The notes below the pieces were generated by a model. The model was not told the DNA's origin, made no database searches, and saw only the letters and a list, made by a program, of their open reading frames with translations. Made by a program: the position numbers and the translations under genes. From the NCBI GenBank assembly GCA_044345075.1, contig JBIJBU010000003.1, forward strand, positions 1 through 43,503: a stretch of 43,503 bases of DNA, read 5' to 3'. Shown here in pieces: positions 17,614 to 21,658 of the stretch. The first letter of the stretch is position 1. Each line of letters opens with the position of its first letter. The DNA is from Candidatus Nanopelagicales bacterium (lineage in GTDB: Bacteria; Actinomycetota; Actinomycetes; S36-B12).

Positions 17614-18555
17614 ATGTTCATTTTTGATTGGTTGAAGACCGGCGTTAGCTGGGTCCTGGTGCAGTTCCATCAGTTCTTCAGCAACTTCATGGATCCGGCC
17701 AGTGGTTGGACCTGGACCTTGTCCATCGTCGGTCTCGTGATCGTCATTCGAATCCTGTTGATTCCGCTGTTCGTCAAGCAGATCAAGTCACAGCGCAATC
17801 TCCAATTGATTCAGCCGCAGATCAAGGAGATTCAAAAGAAGTACAAGGGCGACAAGGAAAAGCAGTCGCAGGAAATGATGAAGATCTACAAGGAGACGGG
17901 TACTAACCCGTTGGCCTCGTGCCTTCCCATCCTGTTGCAGGCACCTATCTTCTTCGCACTTTTCAGCGTTCTCCAGAGCATCGCGATGTACAACGCGAAC
18001 GATTCCACCTATACAGCGCAAGGTGTTTTCCTGTGGGACCAGTACAAGGATCTCCTGCCGCTCGCGCATAGCGCGGAAATCTTCGGCGTACCGCTGTACG
18101 CGACATTCATGGATGCTGGACAGACACCGAACGTCATGGCGACGCGCACACTTGCGATCGTCTTGATCATTGCGATGACTGTCACGACCTTCTTGACCCA
18201 GCGCCAGCTCATCGTCAAGAACAGTGCGCCTGACAATCCGATGGTCAAGCAGCAGAAGATCATGCTGTACGTGTTCCCGCTGGTCTTCGCCATCGGCGGT
18301 ATCAATTTCCCGATCGGCGTTCTGATCTACTGGTTCACCACCAACCTGTGGACCATGGGTCAGCAGTTCTACGTGATCCGCAACAACCCGCAGCCAGGTA
18401 CACCTGCGCATGACGCCAAGATGGCGCGCCAGGCAGCCAAGGCGGCCAGCAAGGCTGGCATCCCCGAACTCACCACTGATGAGACTCCGGACCCGACCCC
18501 GCGGGTTCAGCCCAAGAAGACATCGCGCAGTAAGCGCAAGGGCACGACTTCCTGA
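17614..18555 (+). CDS. yidC: Membrane protein insertase YidC
   Basis: IRILLIPLFVKQIKSQR, NPLASCLPILLQAPIF, GVLIYWFTTNLWTMGQQ. Confidence 0.97.
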   Translation: MFIFDWLKTGVSWVLVQFHQFFSNFMDPASGWTWTLSIVGLVIVIRILLIPLFVKQIKSQRNLQLIQPQIKEIQKKYKGDKEKQSQEMMKIYKETGTNPLASCLPILLQAPIFFALFSVLQSIAMYNANDSTYTAQGVFLWDQYKDLLPLAHSAEIFGVPLYATFMDAGQTPNVMATRTLAIVLIIAMTVTTFLTQRQLIVKNSAPDNPMVKQQKIMLYVFPLVFAIGGINFPIGVLIYWFTTNLWTMGQQFYVIRNNPQPGTPAHDAKMARQAAKAASKAGIPELTTDETPDPTPRVQPKKTSRSKRKGTTS

Positions 18556-18568
18556 ACGGAGAACGACC

Positions 18569-19069
18569 ATGAGCACCGAAGAGACCACTGAGGGCCTGAC
18601 CGGCGCAGCCCTGCTTGATCGTGAAGGCGATGTAGCGGCTGATTACCTCGAGGCACTGTTGGATATAACTGACCTTGATGGCGATATCGATATCGACGTC
18701 GAAGGTAACCGCGCCATGGTGTCGGTTGTTGAGGCGAATTCGGGTGATTTGCGTCATTTGGTAGGAAATGATGGAGAAGTGCTGGATGCACTCCAGGAGC
18801 TCACCCGCCTTGCCGCCGCCCGCGAGACCGGCGAGCGCTCACGTCTGATGCTCGATATCGCCGGCCACCGTGCCGCTCGACGCACCGCGCTCGAGGGGAT
18901 TGCGAAGGAGGCCATTGCTGAGGCTCAGCGCACGTCGGCCCCGGTTTCGCTTGATCCCATGACCCCGTTCGAGCGCAAGGTTGTGCACGACACCGTTGCC
19001 GCCGCCGGCCTGGTCAGTGAATCTGCCGGCGAGGAGCCCGCTCGCCGGGTCGTCATCCGCGTCAGCTAG
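18569..19069 (+). CDS. Jag/KhpB-like KH-R3H RNA-binding protein
   Basis: ATG 18569 after GGAG; EGDVAADYLEALLDI, LVGNDGEVLDALQELTR, R3H motif ERKVVH. Confidence 0.93.
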   Translation: MSTEETTEGLTGAALLDREGDVAADYLEALLDITDLDGDIDIDVEGNRAMVSVVEANSGDLRHLVGNDGEVLDALQELTRLAAARETGERSRLMLDIAGHRAARRTALEGIAKEAIAEAQRTSAPVSLDPMTPFERKVVHDTVAAAGLVSESAGEEPARRVVIRVS

Positions 19070-19076
19070 ATCGCGA

Positions 19077-19092
19077 CGTTTCACGTGAAACA
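19077..19092. promoter_or_regulatory. parS: parS site 1
   Basis: CGTTTCACGTGAAACA containing the perfect palindrome GTTTCACGTGAAAC. Confidence 0.95.
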
Positions 19093-19735
19093 TTCGCCAG
19101 CCCTCCCCGACTGGCTTCTTTCCACTGAGCCTGAACTGTCGGCTTATGTCGATCTCCTCAGCACGACCGGTGTGGAGCATGGCCTCATCGGTCCGCGCGA
19201 AGTCCCCCGCCTGTGGGAACGCCATGTTCTCAATTGCGCCGTCGTGGCTGACCCAGCGCTTGGGTTGGTGCCGATCGACGCTCGGGTCGCCGACGTGGGA
19301 TCGGGCGCCGGTCTGCCCGGGCTCGTCTGGGGCATTGCCCGACCCGATATCCGCGTCGTGTTGATCGAACCTCTGCTGCGCCGGGCCACCTTCCTCACCC
19401 AAGCTGTTGACGACCTGGGCCTTTCCGGTCGGGTCACTGTGCTGCGCGGTCGTGCTGAAGACACAGCCTCCTCCCCCGACTGGGTACCCGTCGATGTCGT
19501 CACTGCTCGGGCCGTTGCCCCATTGGAGAAGCTGCTGGGCTGGACGGTCCCGCTCTTGGTGAAGGGCGGACGACTAGCCCTGCTCAAGGGAAGCAGCGCT
19601 GGCGAGGAGATCACGGCTGCAGCACCAGCAGCGATATCCATGGGTGTGCGCGACCTGGGGATAACGACCTGTGGCTCCCCCTGGGTTGAACCGGAGACCA
19701 CTGTGGTGACGGGTACCCGAGGTACGGCACAATGA
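19085..19735 (+). CDS. rsmG: 16S rRNA m7G527 methyltransferase RsmG (GidB)
   Basis: HGLIGPREVPRLWERHVLN, DVGSGAGLPG, TARAVAPL; the GTG start lies inside parS 1. Confidence 0.96.
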   Translation: MKHSPALPDWLLSTEPELSAYVDLLSTTGVEHGLIGPREVPRLWERHVLNCAVVADPALGLVPIDARVADVGSGAGLPGLVWGIARPDIRVVLIEPLLRRATFLTQAVDDLGLSGRVTVLRGRAEDTASSPDWVPVDVVTARAVAPLEKLLGWTVPLLVKGGRLALLKGSSAGEEITAAAPAAISMGVRDLGITTCGSPWVEPETTVVTGTRGTAQ

Positions 19736-19860
19736 GCGGCGTGACAACGACCCCAGAACCCGCCGGCCTCGGCTGGCCGGAGACCTATCTGGAGCAGCAA
19801 GATCCAGCCGTTTCACGTGAAACATCTGGTGAACCCGCCGGCCTGGGATGGCCCGAATGA
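19732..19860 (+). CDS. Unannotated 42-aa micro-protein with two EPAGLGWPE repeats flanking parS-encoded VSRET
   Basis: MSGVTTTPEPAGLGWPETYLEQQDPAVSRETSGEPAGLGWPE; ATGA overlaps with both the rsmG stop and the parA start; the repeat copies differ only synonymously. Alternative start GTG 19741. Confidence 0.65.
   Translation: MSGVTTTPEPAGLGWPETYLEQQDPAVSRETSGEPAGLGWPE
19809..19824. promoter_or_regulatory. parS: parS site 2
   Basis: CGTTTCACGTGAAACA, identical to site 1. Confidence 0.95.
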
Positions 19861-20666
19861 CCCGCATCGTCACCGTTGCCAACCAAAAGGGTGGTGTCGG
19901 CAAGACCACGACCACGGTCAATATTGCCGCTGCGCTGGCCCAAAGTGGCGCCAAGGTCCTGGTCATTGACCTTGATCCACAGGGCAACGCATCCACGGCC
20001 CTCGGGGTCGATCACCATGAAGGCGTGCCCAGCATCTATGAGGTGCTCTCGGGGGAGCGCACCATAGCTGAGGTTGTTCAGCTCTGCCCGGATATCCCCA
20101 ACCTCATGACCGCACCGGCCACGATTGACCTGGCCGGCGCTGAGATCGAGCTGGTCTCCCAGGTGGCTCGCGAATACCGACTCAGTCGGGCTGTAGAGGC
20201 CTATCTCGAGCACGTTGTGCGCACGACGGGGGAGCCGCTCGACTATGTCTTCCTCGACTGCCCGCCGTCACTGGGCCTGCTCACCCTGAACGGCCTGGTC
20301 GCTGCCCGTGAGGTGCTGCTGCCGATTCAGTGCGAGTACTACGCCCTCGAAGGCCTCTCACAACTCCTGCGCACGGTCGAAATGGTGACCACCCACCTGA
20401 ACCCGAAGCTCCAGGTGAGCGCGATCTTGTTGACCATGTATGACGGACGCACCCGCCTGGCCTCCCAGGTAGCCGACGAAGTGCGCACCCATTTCGGCAC
20501 GAAGGTGCTCGAGACAGTGATTCCCCGCAATGTGCGGATCTCCGAGGCACCCTCGTATGCCCAGTCGGTCCTCACCTACGACCCCTCATCTCCGGGGGCC
20601 TTGACGTATCAGGAGGCAGCAGCGCAATTTGCCGCCATTGATCCACAGAACAATCCACAGACATAA
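19857..20666 (+). CDS. parA: Chromosome partitioning ATPase ParA/Soj
   Basis: ANQKGGVGKTTT, IDLDPQGNAS, DCPPSLG, PIQCEYYALEG, IPRNVRISEAPS. Confidence 0.97.
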   Translation: MTRIVTVANQKGGVGKTTTTVNIAAALAQSGAKVLVIDLDPQGNASTALGVDHHEGVPSIYEVLSGERTIAEVVQLCPDIPNLMTAPATIDLAGAEIELVSQVAREYRLSRAVEAYLEHVVRTTGEPLDYVFLDCPPSLGLLTLNGLVAAREVLLPIQCEYYALEGLSQLLRTVEMVTTHLNPKLQVSAILLTMYDGRTRLASQVADEVRTHFGTKVLETVIPRNVRISEAPSYAQSVLTYDPSSPGALTYQEAAAQFAAIDPQNNPQT

Positions 20667-20722
20667 CAGTGTAAATACGGACAATAACCCCATAATTGTC
20701 CCCAGCTTCGGAGGTTATCCCC

Positions 20723-21658
20723 ATGGCACCAGCACCTGCCAAGCGCGGATTGGGTAAGGGTCTCGGCGCCCTCATTCCCTCCACCCCCGAAGCCCAAGCC
20801 GCACAGGCCACAGATACCTTCGTACCCGCTGCGGTCCCTGGCGCCGTCTACGCCGAGCTTCCGATTGGCTCCATCGAGCCAAACCCCCGCCAGCCCCGCA
20901 GCGTTTTCGATCCCGACGCCCTGGCTGAACTCGTGCACTCGATCCGCGAGATCGGGCTCCTGCAGCCGGTCGTCGTACGCGAAGTCGGCAATCACTACGA
21001 ACTCATTGCGGGCGAACGACGACTGCGCGCATCCAAGGAAGCCGGCCTGACTCACATCCCGGCGATCATTCGTGCCACTGATGATGACGACCTTCTTCGC
21101 GATGCACTTCTTGAGAATCTGCACCGTTCGAATCTGAACGCACTCGAAGAAGCAGCCGCATACTCGCAGTTGCTGGCCGACTTCGGGTGCACGCAAGAAG
21201 AGCTTGCGCAGCGCATCGGACGATCACGGCCGCAGGTGACCAACACCCTTCGACTCTTGAAACTTCCGCCTGATGTTCAGCGTCGCGTTGCAGCGGGTGT
21301 ACTCAGTGCAGGGCACGCACGTGCACTGCTTTCCCTTGACGATCCTGATGCAATGAATGCACTCGCTCAGCGCATCGTCAATGAAGGATTGAGTGTTCGC
21401 AATGTCGAGGAGATCATTCTTCTCGGGCAGGGAAAGTCGAAAAAGAAGAGCAATAGCAACAAGAAATCGCGCTCTGACTCACTTCAGGATCTTGTCGAGG
21501 AAGTCCAGGAAAGAATGGGAGATGCACTCGACACACGCGTCACCATCTCTGGCTTGCCTCGCTCAAACTCACGCGGCACGATCGTCATCGAAGCGGCAGA
21601 TGCTGAAGATCTTCGCCGTATCGCCGACGCCATCGCTGGGCCTGCACCACGTCTGTGA
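20723..21658 (+). CDS. parB: Chromosome partitioning protein ParB/Spo0J
   Basis: ATG 20723 after GGAGG; KRGLGKGLGALIP, PNPRQPR, GERRLRA (CTPase), ENLHR, HTH, SAGHARALL. Confidence 0.97.
   Translation: MAPAPAKRGLGKGLGALIPSTPEAQAAQATDTFVPAAVPGAVYAELPIGSIEPNPRQPRSVFDPDALAELVHSIREIGLLQPVVVREVGNHYELIAGERRLRASKEAGLTHIPAIIRATDDDDLLRDALLENLHRSNLNALEEAAAYSQLLADFGCTQEELAQRIGRSRPQVTNTLRLLKLPPDVQRRVAAGVLSAGHARALLSLDDPDAMNALAQRIVNEGLSVRNVEEIILLGQGKSKKKSNSNKKSRSDSLQDLVEEVQERMGDALDTRVTISGLPRSNSRGTIVIEAADAEDLRRIADAIAGPAPRL

What the first reader, a model, noticed from the sequence alone, without database searches (positions are those of the whole stretch)
19732..19860. Hidden micro-protein built around parS, coupled between rsmG and parA, with a selected EPAGLGWPE repeat
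Seen: a 42-codon ORF fills the rsmG-parA gap exactly, with ATGA overlaps at both ends (19732-19735 and 19857-19860). It holds two 27-nt copies, GAA CCC GCC GGC CTC GGC TGG CCG GAG (19756-19782) and GAA CCC GCC GGC CTG GGA TGG CCC GAA (19831-19857). All four differences are synonymous third positions, which points to selection on the peptide rather than the DNA. The copies flank parS 2, read as VSRET. From memory, many actinobacterial ParA proteins have N-terminal extensions that can include VSRET; here ParA starts directly at its ATPase core. Inference: this is a third, peptide component of the ParABS locus, a bivalent short linear motif possibly linking ParA to a polar anchor. Its GLG core echoes the ParB N-terminal GLGKGL motif. 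A frameshift-fused long ParA isoform is an alternative.
Basis: partly seen in the sequence, partly recalled or inferred. Interest (0 to 1): 0.8.

Follow-up and report, generated by a model that had tools for sequence, protein, structure and literature searches.

The report
ParA's tail split into a micro-protein
The 42-codon reading frame between rsmG and parA is a real, strongly conserved small gene: it is the front tail of the chromosome-partition ATPase ParA, which in this group of lake actinobacteria has become a separate, translationally coupled micro-protein whose function is still unknown.

Summary
The ORF 19732-19860 is a genuine gene. Among 7 species of the window's genus its dN/dS is 0.09, the same as rsmG, against 3.7-4.4 for the same columns read in the other two frames.

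A micro-ORF with two GLGWP motifs lies just upstream of parA in 25 of 30 relatives chosen by ParA similarity alone. The motif pair occurs in 173 of 390 genomes of the order.

New here: in other orders of the class the same GLGWP pair sits in frame at the extreme N-terminus of a long ParA (21 of 30 loci). The micro-protein is therefore ParA's distal N-terminal tail, split off. Its stop overlaps the parA start as RTGA in 126 of 128 split loci.

There is no slippery site or stimulatory RNA structure, which argues against a frameshift fusion. parS is not an obligatory part: 23 of 42 split loci lack it. DivIVA was not found in the genus, so the proposed polar-anchor link has no support.

The peptide is acidic and predicted disordered. 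Its partner is unknown; ParA itself is my leading guess, and it is inference only. No paper in the library mentions the motif.

The parts
19085..19735 (+). rsmG (16S rRNA methyltransferase G); its TGA overlaps the micro-ORF ATG (ATGA 19732-19735)
   Evidence: Pfam GidB E 3e-42; ORF list
19732..19860 (+). micro-ORF, 42 codons plus stop: an acidic, predicted-disordered peptide with two GLGWP motifs; the split-off distal N-terminal tail of ParA
   Evidence: dN/dS 0.09; homologues in 25 of 30 relatives; in frame with ParA in other orders
19765..19779 (+). GLGWP motif 1 (residues 12-16), inside the 27-nt copy 19756-19782
19810..19823 (.). parS 2 (GTTTCACGTGAAAC), read as VSRET; a DNA site for ParB that rides inside the ORF and is not an obligatory part of the peptide
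19840..19854 (+). GLGWP motif 2 (residues 37-41), inside the 27-nt copy 19831-19857
19857..20666 (+). parA, short form that starts at the ATPase core (MTRIVTVANQKGGVGKT); its ATG overlaps the micro-ORF stop (ATGA 19857-19860)
   Evidence: Pfam AAA_31 E 2e-57. One species of the genus has a stop codon directly before this ATG in the parA frame (L005)
20696..21658 (+). parB (N-terminal GLGKGLGALI peptide, ParB_N and HTH domains)
19078..19091 (.). parS 1, between jag (R3H/KH) and rsmG; its central GTG is the first possible rsmG start

Best explanation
The ORF 19732-19860 is a real protein-coding gene for a 42-residue, acidic, intrinsically disordered micro-protein with two invariant GLGWP motifs.

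It is homologous to the extreme N-terminal tail of long ParA proteins found in other orders of the same class. Their layout is GLGWP - GLGWP - a linker that carries VSRET/parS - a DDTPIARAA helix - the ATPase. In the window's order the tail and the ATPase lie in different frames, with the tail's stop overlapping the parA start (RTGA). That is a gene fission, which parsimony places in this order because every other order sampled has the fused form.

Shown:
- coding selection on the peptide;
- homology of the motif architecture to the ParA tail;
- split versus fused distribution across lineages;
- overlapping stop and start codons;
- absence of frameshift signals.

Inferred:
- Ribosomes ending rsmG restart on the micro-ORF, and ribosomes ending the micro-ORF restart on parA. 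The peptide and ParA would then be made from one message as two polypeptides in linked amounts.
- Because the tail survived being cut from ParA under the same selection as rsmG, its job does not need a covalent link to the ATPase.
- My best guess (about one in three) is that it still acts on the partition machinery in trans. The two Trp-Pro motifs would bind two equivalent sites of a dimer, most likely ParA-ATP, otherwise ParB. Its acidic chain may compete with DNA for a basic surface.
For: Coding selection:
- NG86 dN/dS over 21 pairs of 7 same-genus loci is 0.091 for the whole ORF. It is 0.093 without the overlaps and parS (dS 0.82).
- The same columns read in the parA frame give 3.7, and in the rsmG frame 4.4. 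The rsmG 3' end gives 0.089.
- Variable columns at codon positions 1/2/3 are 7/7/28 of 43.

Independent sample:
- Of 30 loci fetched by ParA similarity only, 25 have G[LVIM]GW[PA] upstream of parA, and 24 of those have two copies in one frame.
- All synonymous codons are used at G, L, G and P. TGG is used 49 of 49 times.

Spread:
- The exact motif pair is in 173 of 390 genomes of the order, nearly always once per genome. The backwards-pattern control gave 14 hits in 11 genomes.
- A profile search of 1.84 billion representatives gave 94 hits at E <= 0.001, of which 88 are 31-85 aa.

Split versus fused:
- There are 128 split loci (108 distinct ORFs) in the order, with RTGA at the stop in 126.
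- Of 30 loci from other orders, 21 are fused in frame through the whole ParA. A further 4 are in frame up to the locus end.

Against frameshifting:
- The parA frame is closed within 3 codons of the RTG in 8 of 104 distinct loci.
- The last 24 nt vary freely at third positions.
- The RNA fold of 19825-19960 has z +0.48.

Disorder and charge:
- An AlphaFold2 model of a natural fused ParA gives pLDDT < 50 for residues 1-33, which hold both motifs.
- 69 of 71 micro-proteins have a negative net charge, median -4.

No plus-strand terminator-like or promoter-like site was found between rsmG and parB.
Against: - There is no direct evidence of translation. The one RNA run holds only a 138-nt contig inside parA.
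- No partner is identified.
- The direction of the event (fission rather than fusion) rests on parsimony without a rooted tree.
- Motif invariance in alignment A1 is partly by construction, because loci L032-L141 were found with the motif pattern. The unbiased figures are those.
- Some lineages of the order have lost or changed the motif. Examples are ALGWP/DLGWP in L008, none in L010, and 0 of 93 genomes of family f7 and 0 of 16 of f5. The peptide is therefore dispensable in some backgrounds.
- In mycobacteria the native ParA starts at MDTP, downstream of the annotated start (PMC7379644). This warns that long in-frame N-termini are not always made, so the 'fused' forms also need protein-level proof.
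- One locus of the window's own type is fused (L079) and one from another order is split (L157).
Confidence: 0.7

Rival explanations
1. Recoding: ribosomes shift by -1 at the end of the ORF (at or just before the TGA) and read on into parA. The cell would then make a long GLGWP-ParA isoform beside the short one.
For: The tail is in frame with ParA in other orders. The ORF is always one base ahead of the parA frame, and the parA RTG sits exactly at the stop. One locus of the window's type is fused outright (L079).
Against: - The +1 frame relation is an automatic consequence of an RTGA overlap, so it is not independent evidence.
- There is no X XXY YYZ heptamer.
- The last sense codon varies (E, T, A, Q, K, R, S, G, V ...).
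- The parA frame carries a stop within 3 codons of the RTG in 8 of 104 loci, and directly before it in 3.
- No RNA structure stands out downstream (z +0.48).
- A few loci (L019 and L023; 2 of the 29 split loci) have the ORF in the other frame.
- L079 comes from a single assembly and may be an indel error.
Confidence: 0.07
2. A coupling device only: the ORF exists to carry ribosomes from rsmG to parA (or to tune parA translation), and the peptide itself has no function.
For: Stop and start overlap at both ends. RTGA is present in 126 of 128 loci. No constant Shine-Dalgarno-like stretch is visible before the parA start, since third positions vary. In L010 an ORF with the ATGA overlap persists without the motif.
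Against: - A mere ribosome shuttle would not keep dN/dS at 0.09, nor an invariant GLGWP pair encoded by all synonymous codons across many genera.
- It would also not share that motif pair with the N-terminus of fused ParA proteins, where no coupling is needed.
Confidence: 0.08
3. One reading: a bivalent linker that ties ParA to a polar anchor such as DivIVA.
For: There are two identical motifs. In mycobacteria ParA's N-terminal fragment binds DivIVA (PMC7379644 and PMC9298525, passages read).
Against: - The mycobacterial DivIVA contact is the MDTP segment (T3A). That is a different part of the extension, and it is absent from this ParA.
- Pfam DivIVA was found in 0 of 9 genomes of the genus (76-98% complete), though in 13 of 16 genomes of other genera of the family.
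- A DivIVA-like protein of a neighbour genus found nothing at E < 0.06 in 5 genomes that are 94-98% complete.
- Two identical motifs cannot by themselves tell ParA from an anchor.
- Another, unknown anchor is not excluded.
Confidence: 0.08
4. The conservation is at the DNA level (a binding site, promoter or parS-flanking element), or the ORF is an assembly artefact or a decaying remnant.
For: The region holds parS. The flanks of the two parS sites resemble each other (54 nt at 72%, D1).
Against: - Variation is concentrated at third codon positions of one frame only.
- Motif codons use every synonym.
- The motif pair persists where parS is absent (23 of 42 loci).
- The same architecture is present in 128 loci from many assemblies.
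- Three runs' contigs are identical over the stretch (not independent of the source).
Confidence: 0.03

Closest known systems
N-terminal extension of actinobacterial ParA (mycobacterial ParA-DivIVA/Wag31 contact; Pioro et al. 2019, PMC7379644; Front Microbiol 2022, PMC9298525; passages read)
   Same: It is sequence upstream of the ParA ATPase core, specific to Actinomycetota and disordered. In long ParA proteins of other orders, the GLGWP pair, the VSRET sites and the DTP(I/L)A helix lie in one reading frame.
   Different: The described extension is the 20-25 residues next to the core (native start MDTP, Thr3 needed for DivIVA). The GLGWP pair is a more distal element that these papers' passages do not mention, and that I found in no paper. 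Here it is a separate gene, and the DTP segment is missing.
Gene fission with translational coupling (ATGA/GTGA stop-start overlaps in operons; 'Rosetta stone' fused/split pairs); general knowledge, recalled
   Same: One lineage has a single ORF and another has two adjacent ORFs with overlapping stop and start. Both parts remain under selection.
   Different: The detached part is not a domain but a disordered tail of about 40-50 residues carrying short motifs. I know of no described case for a ParA-type ATPase (recalled; the searches showed none).
ParB N-terminal peptide (GLGKGLxALI with a basic residue) that activates ParA; and small partners with disordered activating tails such as ParG for ParF (recalled knowledge)
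   Same: A short disordered peptide encoded beside parA, with a Gly-Leu-Gly core, that could contact the ParA dimer.
   Different: Only GLG is shared. GLGWP has Trp-Pro and no Lys/Arg, and the peptide is acidic. No binding has been shown.
Leader peptides / upstream ORFs and ribosome arrest peptides (TnaC, SecM and others; recalled)
   Same: A short ORF directly upstream of and overlapping a regulated gene, with conserved Trp and Pro near the stop in this genus.
   Different: The motif occurs twice. In many relatives it lies 5-36 residues before the stop, and in fused ParA proteins it is far from any stop. A stalling role does not explain this.

Membership tests
Protein-coding gene (micro-protein) | Purifying selection in its own frame and not in the overlapping frames | tested here: met
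   dN/dS 0.09 against 3.7 and 4.4; third-position variation 28 of 43 columns against 7 and 7
Protein-coding gene (micro-protein) | Evidence of translation (Ribo-seq, mass spectrometry) | not testable with these tools
   Only contigs of one RNA run were available, and they cover part of parA only
ParA N-terminal extension of Actinomycetota | Sequence homologous to the N-terminal region of long ParA proteins | tested here: met
   The same layout of two GLGWP motifs 13-29 residues apart, followed by VSRET, stands at the extreme N-terminus of ParA in 21 (+4 incomplete) of 30 loci of other orders
ParA N-terminal extension of Actinomycetota | In frame and continuous with the ATPase | tested here: not met
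   Different frame with a stop at 19858-19860; the same in 128 loci of the order
ParA N-terminal extension of Actinomycetota | DTP(I/L)A/G segment that binds DivIVA in mycobacteria | tested here: not met
   Absent from the micro-ORF and from this ParA. Present in ParA of L016, L024, L025 and in the fused forms. The motif definition comes from PMC7379644
Programmed -1 ribosomal frameshift site | Conserved slippery heptamer, an open target frame upstream, and a downstream stimulatory structure | tested here: not met
   No heptamer; the parA frame is closed within 3 codons in 8 of 104 loci; fold z +0.48
Translationally coupled operon ORF | Stop codon overlapping the next start (RTGA) | tested here: met
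   ATGA at both ends in the window. RTGA at the parA junction in 126 of 128 loci. The start overlaps the upstream stop in 52 of 108 distinct ORFs; 37 could not be assigned by my rule
ParB-type ParA-activating peptide | GLG(K/R)GL-type motif with an essential basic residue (recalled definition) | tested here: not met
   The motif is GLGWP followed mostly by E/T/S/A/D; 69 of 71 peptides have a negative net charge
Any curated protein or RNA family | Match to Pfam, NCBIfam or Rfam models | tested here: not met
   0 families in Pfam and NCBIfam; 0 Rfam matches over 18500-21000 at E <= 1

The most novel reading that the evidence does not exclude
The GLGWP peptide is a working third protein of the ParABS system: a detachable ParA tail. 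Its two Trp-Pro motifs would clamp two equivalent sites of the ParA-ATP dimer (or of ParB), and its acidic chain would tune nucleoid binding or ATPase turnover. Translational coupling would fix its amount relative to ParA. The same module, still attached, would then be an unrecognised regulatory element of ParA in several other actinomycete families.
Probability: 0.3. Interest if true: 0.75.

Novelty: new variant of a known kind. Interest (0 to 1): 0.62.

Why it matters
ParA-type ATPases are among the best studied bacterial positioning machines, and their lineage-specific N-terminal tails are thought to plug them into cell-pole proteins. Two things appear not to be in print, judging from the searches and 59 of the held library. 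Supplements could not be read and subscription-only papers are not covered.

First, there is an invariant double GLGWP motif at the far N-terminus of ParA in several actinomycete families. Second, an abundant group of uncultured lake actinobacteria has kept this tail as a separate micro-protein for a long time, under selection as strong as on a housekeeping enzyme.

A tail that survives being cut off is a natural experiment. It says the tail's function does not require covalent attachment, which narrows the possible mechanisms and makes them testable with a synthetic 42-residue peptide.

It is also a clean example of how small genes are missed or left nameless by annotation. Where a source name is shown for its relatives, it is 'hypothetical protein', and the 94 cluster representatives come from a library that holds no names.

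Tried and rejected
- Complex prediction of two ParA copies with ATP and the micro-protein, using my own alignments A2 and A1: verdict 'no answer' (scores 0.00 and 0.01, mark 0.32). It counts neither for nor against binding.

- Protein Atlas look-ups of the micro-protein and of residues 1-60 of a fused ParA: no usable hit.

- Word-index search for longer (fused) relatives of the micro-protein: none. This is weak evidence, and it was superseded by the six-frame survey of genomes.

- RNA evidence. The only RNA run (X20) laid one identical 138-nt piece inside parA (19949-20086) and nothing on the micro-ORF. No conclusion on expression can be drawn, and the run may hold DNA.

- Rfam and the promoter/terminator scan gave nothing on the plus strand.

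- A search of the own genome for other GLGWP-bearing ORFs of 40 aa or more in six frames found only this ORF, so no second client of the motif was found.

- I considered a ribosome-arrest peptide (Trp-Pro near the stop). I rejected it because the motif is duplicated, is often far from the stop, and occurs at the N-terminus of fused ParA proteins.

- I considered gene conversion between the two 27-nt copies as the reason for their likeness. I rejected it because the copies differ at 3-7 bases in each species, and 35 of those 36 differences are at third positions.

- I did not build a rooted tree, so the direction (fission rather than fusion) is parsimony only.

- Rows dropped. For alignments A1 and A2, I kept 48 of the 65 distinct split loci that had an assigned start, an RTGA and a complete parA, namely those with ParA of 285 aa or less. 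L168 was left out of A3.
Full report
**1. The observation**

- rsmG (19085-19735, Pfam GidB) ends in TGA at 19733-19735.
- A 42-codon ORF starts at ATG 19732 and ends in TGA at 19858-19860.
- parA's ATG at 19857 overlaps that stop.

The ORF reads MSGVTTTPEPAGLGWPETYLEQQDPAVSRETSGEPAGLGWPE. Two 27-nt copies (19756-19782 and 19831-19857; family D2) both encode EPAGLGWPE. They differ at four bases, all synonymous third positions. The chance of all four falling on third positions is 0.007.

An exact parS (GTTTCACGTGAAAC) at 19810-19823 is read as VSRET. A second parS lies at 19078-19091. That is 2 matches against 0.10 expected.

No Pfam, NCBIfam or Rfam model matches the ORF or the region.

**2. 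It is a gene**

I fetched the parA loci of 40 relatives by ParA similarity alone and read the 480 nt upstream in three frames. In the 7 species of the window's genus (ParA 97-100% identical), the ORF's peptide is almost unchanged while the other two frames are scrambled.

Nei-Gojobori dN/dS over the 21 pairs:
- whole ORF: 0.091
- ORF without the two overlaps and parS: 0.093 (dS 0.82)
- the same columns in the parA frame: 3.7
- the same columns in the rsmG frame: 4.4
- the last 108 codons of rsmG: 0.089

Variable columns at codon positions 1, 2 and 3 number 7, 7 and 28 of 43. Between the two 27-nt copies within each of the 7 species, 35 of 36 differences are at third positions. Selection therefore acts on the peptide, not on the DNA, and not through copy homogenisation.

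**3. How widely**

Of the 30 ParA-selected loci, 25 have G[LVIM]GW[PA] in a short ORF just upstream of parA, and 24 of these have two copies in one frame.
- At the G, L, G and P codons all synonyms are used (for example GGC 28, GGA 8, GGT 7, GGG 6). Trp is TGG 49 of 49 times.
- The exact DNA pattern for two GLGWP within 160 nt occurs in 173 of 390 genomes of the order, almost always once per genome. The backwards control pattern gave 14 hits in 11 genomes.
- By family the counts are f1 125 of 172, f10 23 of 63, f4 22 of 39, f7 0 of 93 and f5 0 of 16.
All are uncultured or MAG records, and 21 are titled Candidatus Nanopelagicales. The lineage is therefore a group of uncultured freshwater actinobacteria. 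The window's stretch itself is held by 19 lake-water metagenome runs.
- A profile of 49 micro-proteins (A1) searched against 1.84 billion cluster representatives found 94 proteins at E <= 0.001. Of these, 88 are 31-85 residues long. That library holds no names.
- The close relatives found are unnamed or called 'hypothetical protein'.

**4. What it is**

The same pattern search over 301 genomes of the class (at least 90% complete) hit 51 genomes. Some are in families outside the order: f22 15 of 20, f24 4 of 8, f18 5 of 20.

In the 30 loci fetched from those other orders, the GLGWP pair is in the same frame as the ParA Walker A motif.
- In 21 loci the ORF runs through the whole ParA.
- In 4 more it is in frame until the locus ends.
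- One locus (L158) is in frame up to the last residues before Walker A.
- One (L156) ends in the linker.
- One (L157) is split.
- Two (L147, L148) are off-target.

These long ParA proteins begin, a few residues after a start codon that overlaps the rsmG stop, with this layout:
- GLGWP, then 8-25 residues, then GLGWP;
- a long Pro/Ala-rich linker that carries one to three VSRET (parS) sites;
- a DDTPIARAAE...LPRP segment;
- the ATPase.

By contrast, every motif-bearing locus of the window's order that I could classify is split. The counts are 22 of 22 (one search set), 29 of 29 (one search set) and 76 of 77 (one search set). Together that is 128 loci with 108 distinct ORFs. The ORF stop overlaps an ATG or GTG as RTGA in 126 of 128.

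Two split layouts exist. In f9 and f10 the cut lies before the DDTPLA segment, which stays on ParA (L016, L024, L025). In the window's family the linker and the DTP segment are gone, and ParA starts at its core.

The micro-protein is thus the distal N-terminal tail of ParA made into a gene of its own. One of the 21 fused loci (L168, genome G407) is flagged unpublished. Without it the count is 20 of 29.

**5. Separate polypeptide or frameshift fusion?**

Four points argue against recoding.
- The +1 frame relation follows automatically from an RTGA overlap, so it is not evidence for recoding.
- There is no slippery heptamer. The last sense codon varies widely, and the last 24 nt vary at third positions.
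- In 8 of 104 distinct loci the parA frame carries a stop within three codons of the start. In 3 loci the stop is directly before it, including one species of the window's own genus.
- The RNA from 19825 to 19960 folds no better than shuffles (z +0.48).

The parsimonious reading is termination-reinitiation, giving two polypeptides made from one message. This step is inferred, not shown.

No plus-strand promoter-like or terminator-like site separates rsmG, the ORF, parA and parB. The micro-ORF's own start overlaps the upstream stop in 52 of 108 distinct ORFs. In 19 others it lies 2-7 nt after that stop, and 37 could not be assigned by my rule.

**6. Properties and function**

- The peptides are 37-87 residues long (median 49), rich in P, G, T, S and A, and carry Trp almost only in the motifs.
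- 69 of 71 have a negative net charge (median -4; the window's is -6).
- The motifs start 13-29 residues apart.
- In 32 of 71 the peptide ends one residue after the second motif. In the others it ends up to 36 residues later.
- An AlphaFold2 model of a natural, compact fused ParA (L144, alignment A3 of 42 rows) has a confident ATPase core (mean pLDDT 84.9). Residues 1-33, which hold both motifs, have pLDDT below 50. The tail is a disordered region with short linear motifs.
- In the window's genome GLGWP occurs in no other six-frame ORF of 40 residues or more.

parS is a passenger. Of 42 distinct split loci not selected for parS, 23 have no VSRET-coding site in or beside the ORF, 15 have one and 4 have two.

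The polar-anchor idea finds no support here.
- Passages of PMC7379644 and PMC9298525 show that mycobacterial ParA binds DivIVA through its N-terminal fragment, whose native start is MDTP, and that T3A abolishes binding.
- That DTP segment is a different part of the extension and is missing from this ParA.
- Pfam DivIVA was found in 0 of 9 genomes of the window's genus (76-98% complete). It was found in 13 of 16 genomes of other genera of the family.
- A DivIVA-like protein of a neighbour genus found nothing better than E 0.06 in five genomes that are 94-98% complete.
- Yet it is within this genus that dN/dS is 0.09.

Because the tail stayed under selection after being cut from the ATPase, its role does not need covalent attachment. 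By the logic of fused and split pairs, ParA is the likeliest partner. Two identical motifs fit two equivalent sites of a dimer, and an acidic chain could compete with DNA. This is inference. I put it at about one in three.

**7. Comparison with what is known, and novelty**

The closest known thing is the actinobacterial ParA N-terminal extension. The part described in the passages I read is the 20-25 residues next to the core.

Full-text searches gave only irrelevant papers for 'GLGWP' (2 hits) and for 'LGWP' with 'ParA' (41 hits, 10 listed). Topic searches (listings only, apart from the two papers read in passages) showed no description of a micro-ORF between rsmG and parA. Supplements were not readable and subscription-only papers are not covered.

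I file it as a new variant of a known kind: a known tail, a new conserved motif, and a new gene arrangement.

**8. Verdict**

- Observation: confirmed.
- A real and widespread micro-protein gene that arose by splitting ParA's tail: confidence about 0.7 for gene, homology and separate translation together.
- Function: open.
- Interest: 0.62.

Noticed in passing
window 19078-19091 and 19085: The first possible start codon of rsmG (GTG 19085) is the central GTG of the upstream parS palindrome, so parS 1 straddles the jag-rsmG junction and would be read as ...VKH. The true rsmG start may lie further downstream, because the Pfam match begins at residue 17.
   Followed up: no
window 19040-19093 vs 19772-19825: The 54 nt around the two parS sites are 72% alike (D1), including AGATC...CGTTTCACGTGAAACAT. 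This may be an extended ParB site context or an old duplication.
   Followed up: no
loci: In relatives the site inside the ORF is often GTTTCCCGTGAAAC or its reverse complement GTTTCACGGGAAAC. That is one half-site change which keeps the reading VSRET. In 42 loci the counts are 12 perfect, 8 and 3.
   Followed up: partly
whole genome G000 and genus g1: No DivIVA-domain protein was found in any of 9 genomes of the genus, although most other genera of the family have a small one (108-154 aa in L172 and L173). An actinobacterial genus without DivIVA would be unusual.
   Followed up: partly
L079:3340-4302 (-): One MAG contig of the window's type has the GLGWP tail in frame with ParA (...GLGWPRPARTARMTRIITVANQ). 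This is either a secondary re-fusion or a one-base assembly error.
   Followed up: no
L010 (G014) and L008 (G018): Two genera of the family keep a short ORF with the ATGA overlap but have lost or changed the motif. L010 has none left. L008 has ALGWP and DLGWP, and its genus g11 scores 0 of 13 with the exact pattern.
   Followed up: no
P0041 (187 aa): In one public gene call, an RsmG N-terminal part runs by a frame change into the micro-protein sequence. This is probably a frameshifted contig or a gene-calling artefact.
   Followed up: no
L157 (G609): This is the one locus outside the order with the GLGWP ORF ending (GTGA) 397 nt before the ParA Walker A, in another frame. It may be a second, independent split or an assembly error.
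   Followed up: no
PMC7379644, methods passage: The authors state that native M. smegmatis ParA starts with MDTP, not at the database start. Long annotated ParA N-termini with VSRET in mycobacteria may therefore not be translated, which is a caution for all 'fused' forms.
   Followed up: no
window 19949-20086: A freshwater RNA-Seq run (X20) holds a 162-nt contig identical to this stretch of parA. This is compatible with expression of parA in situ but not proof of it.
   Followed up: no
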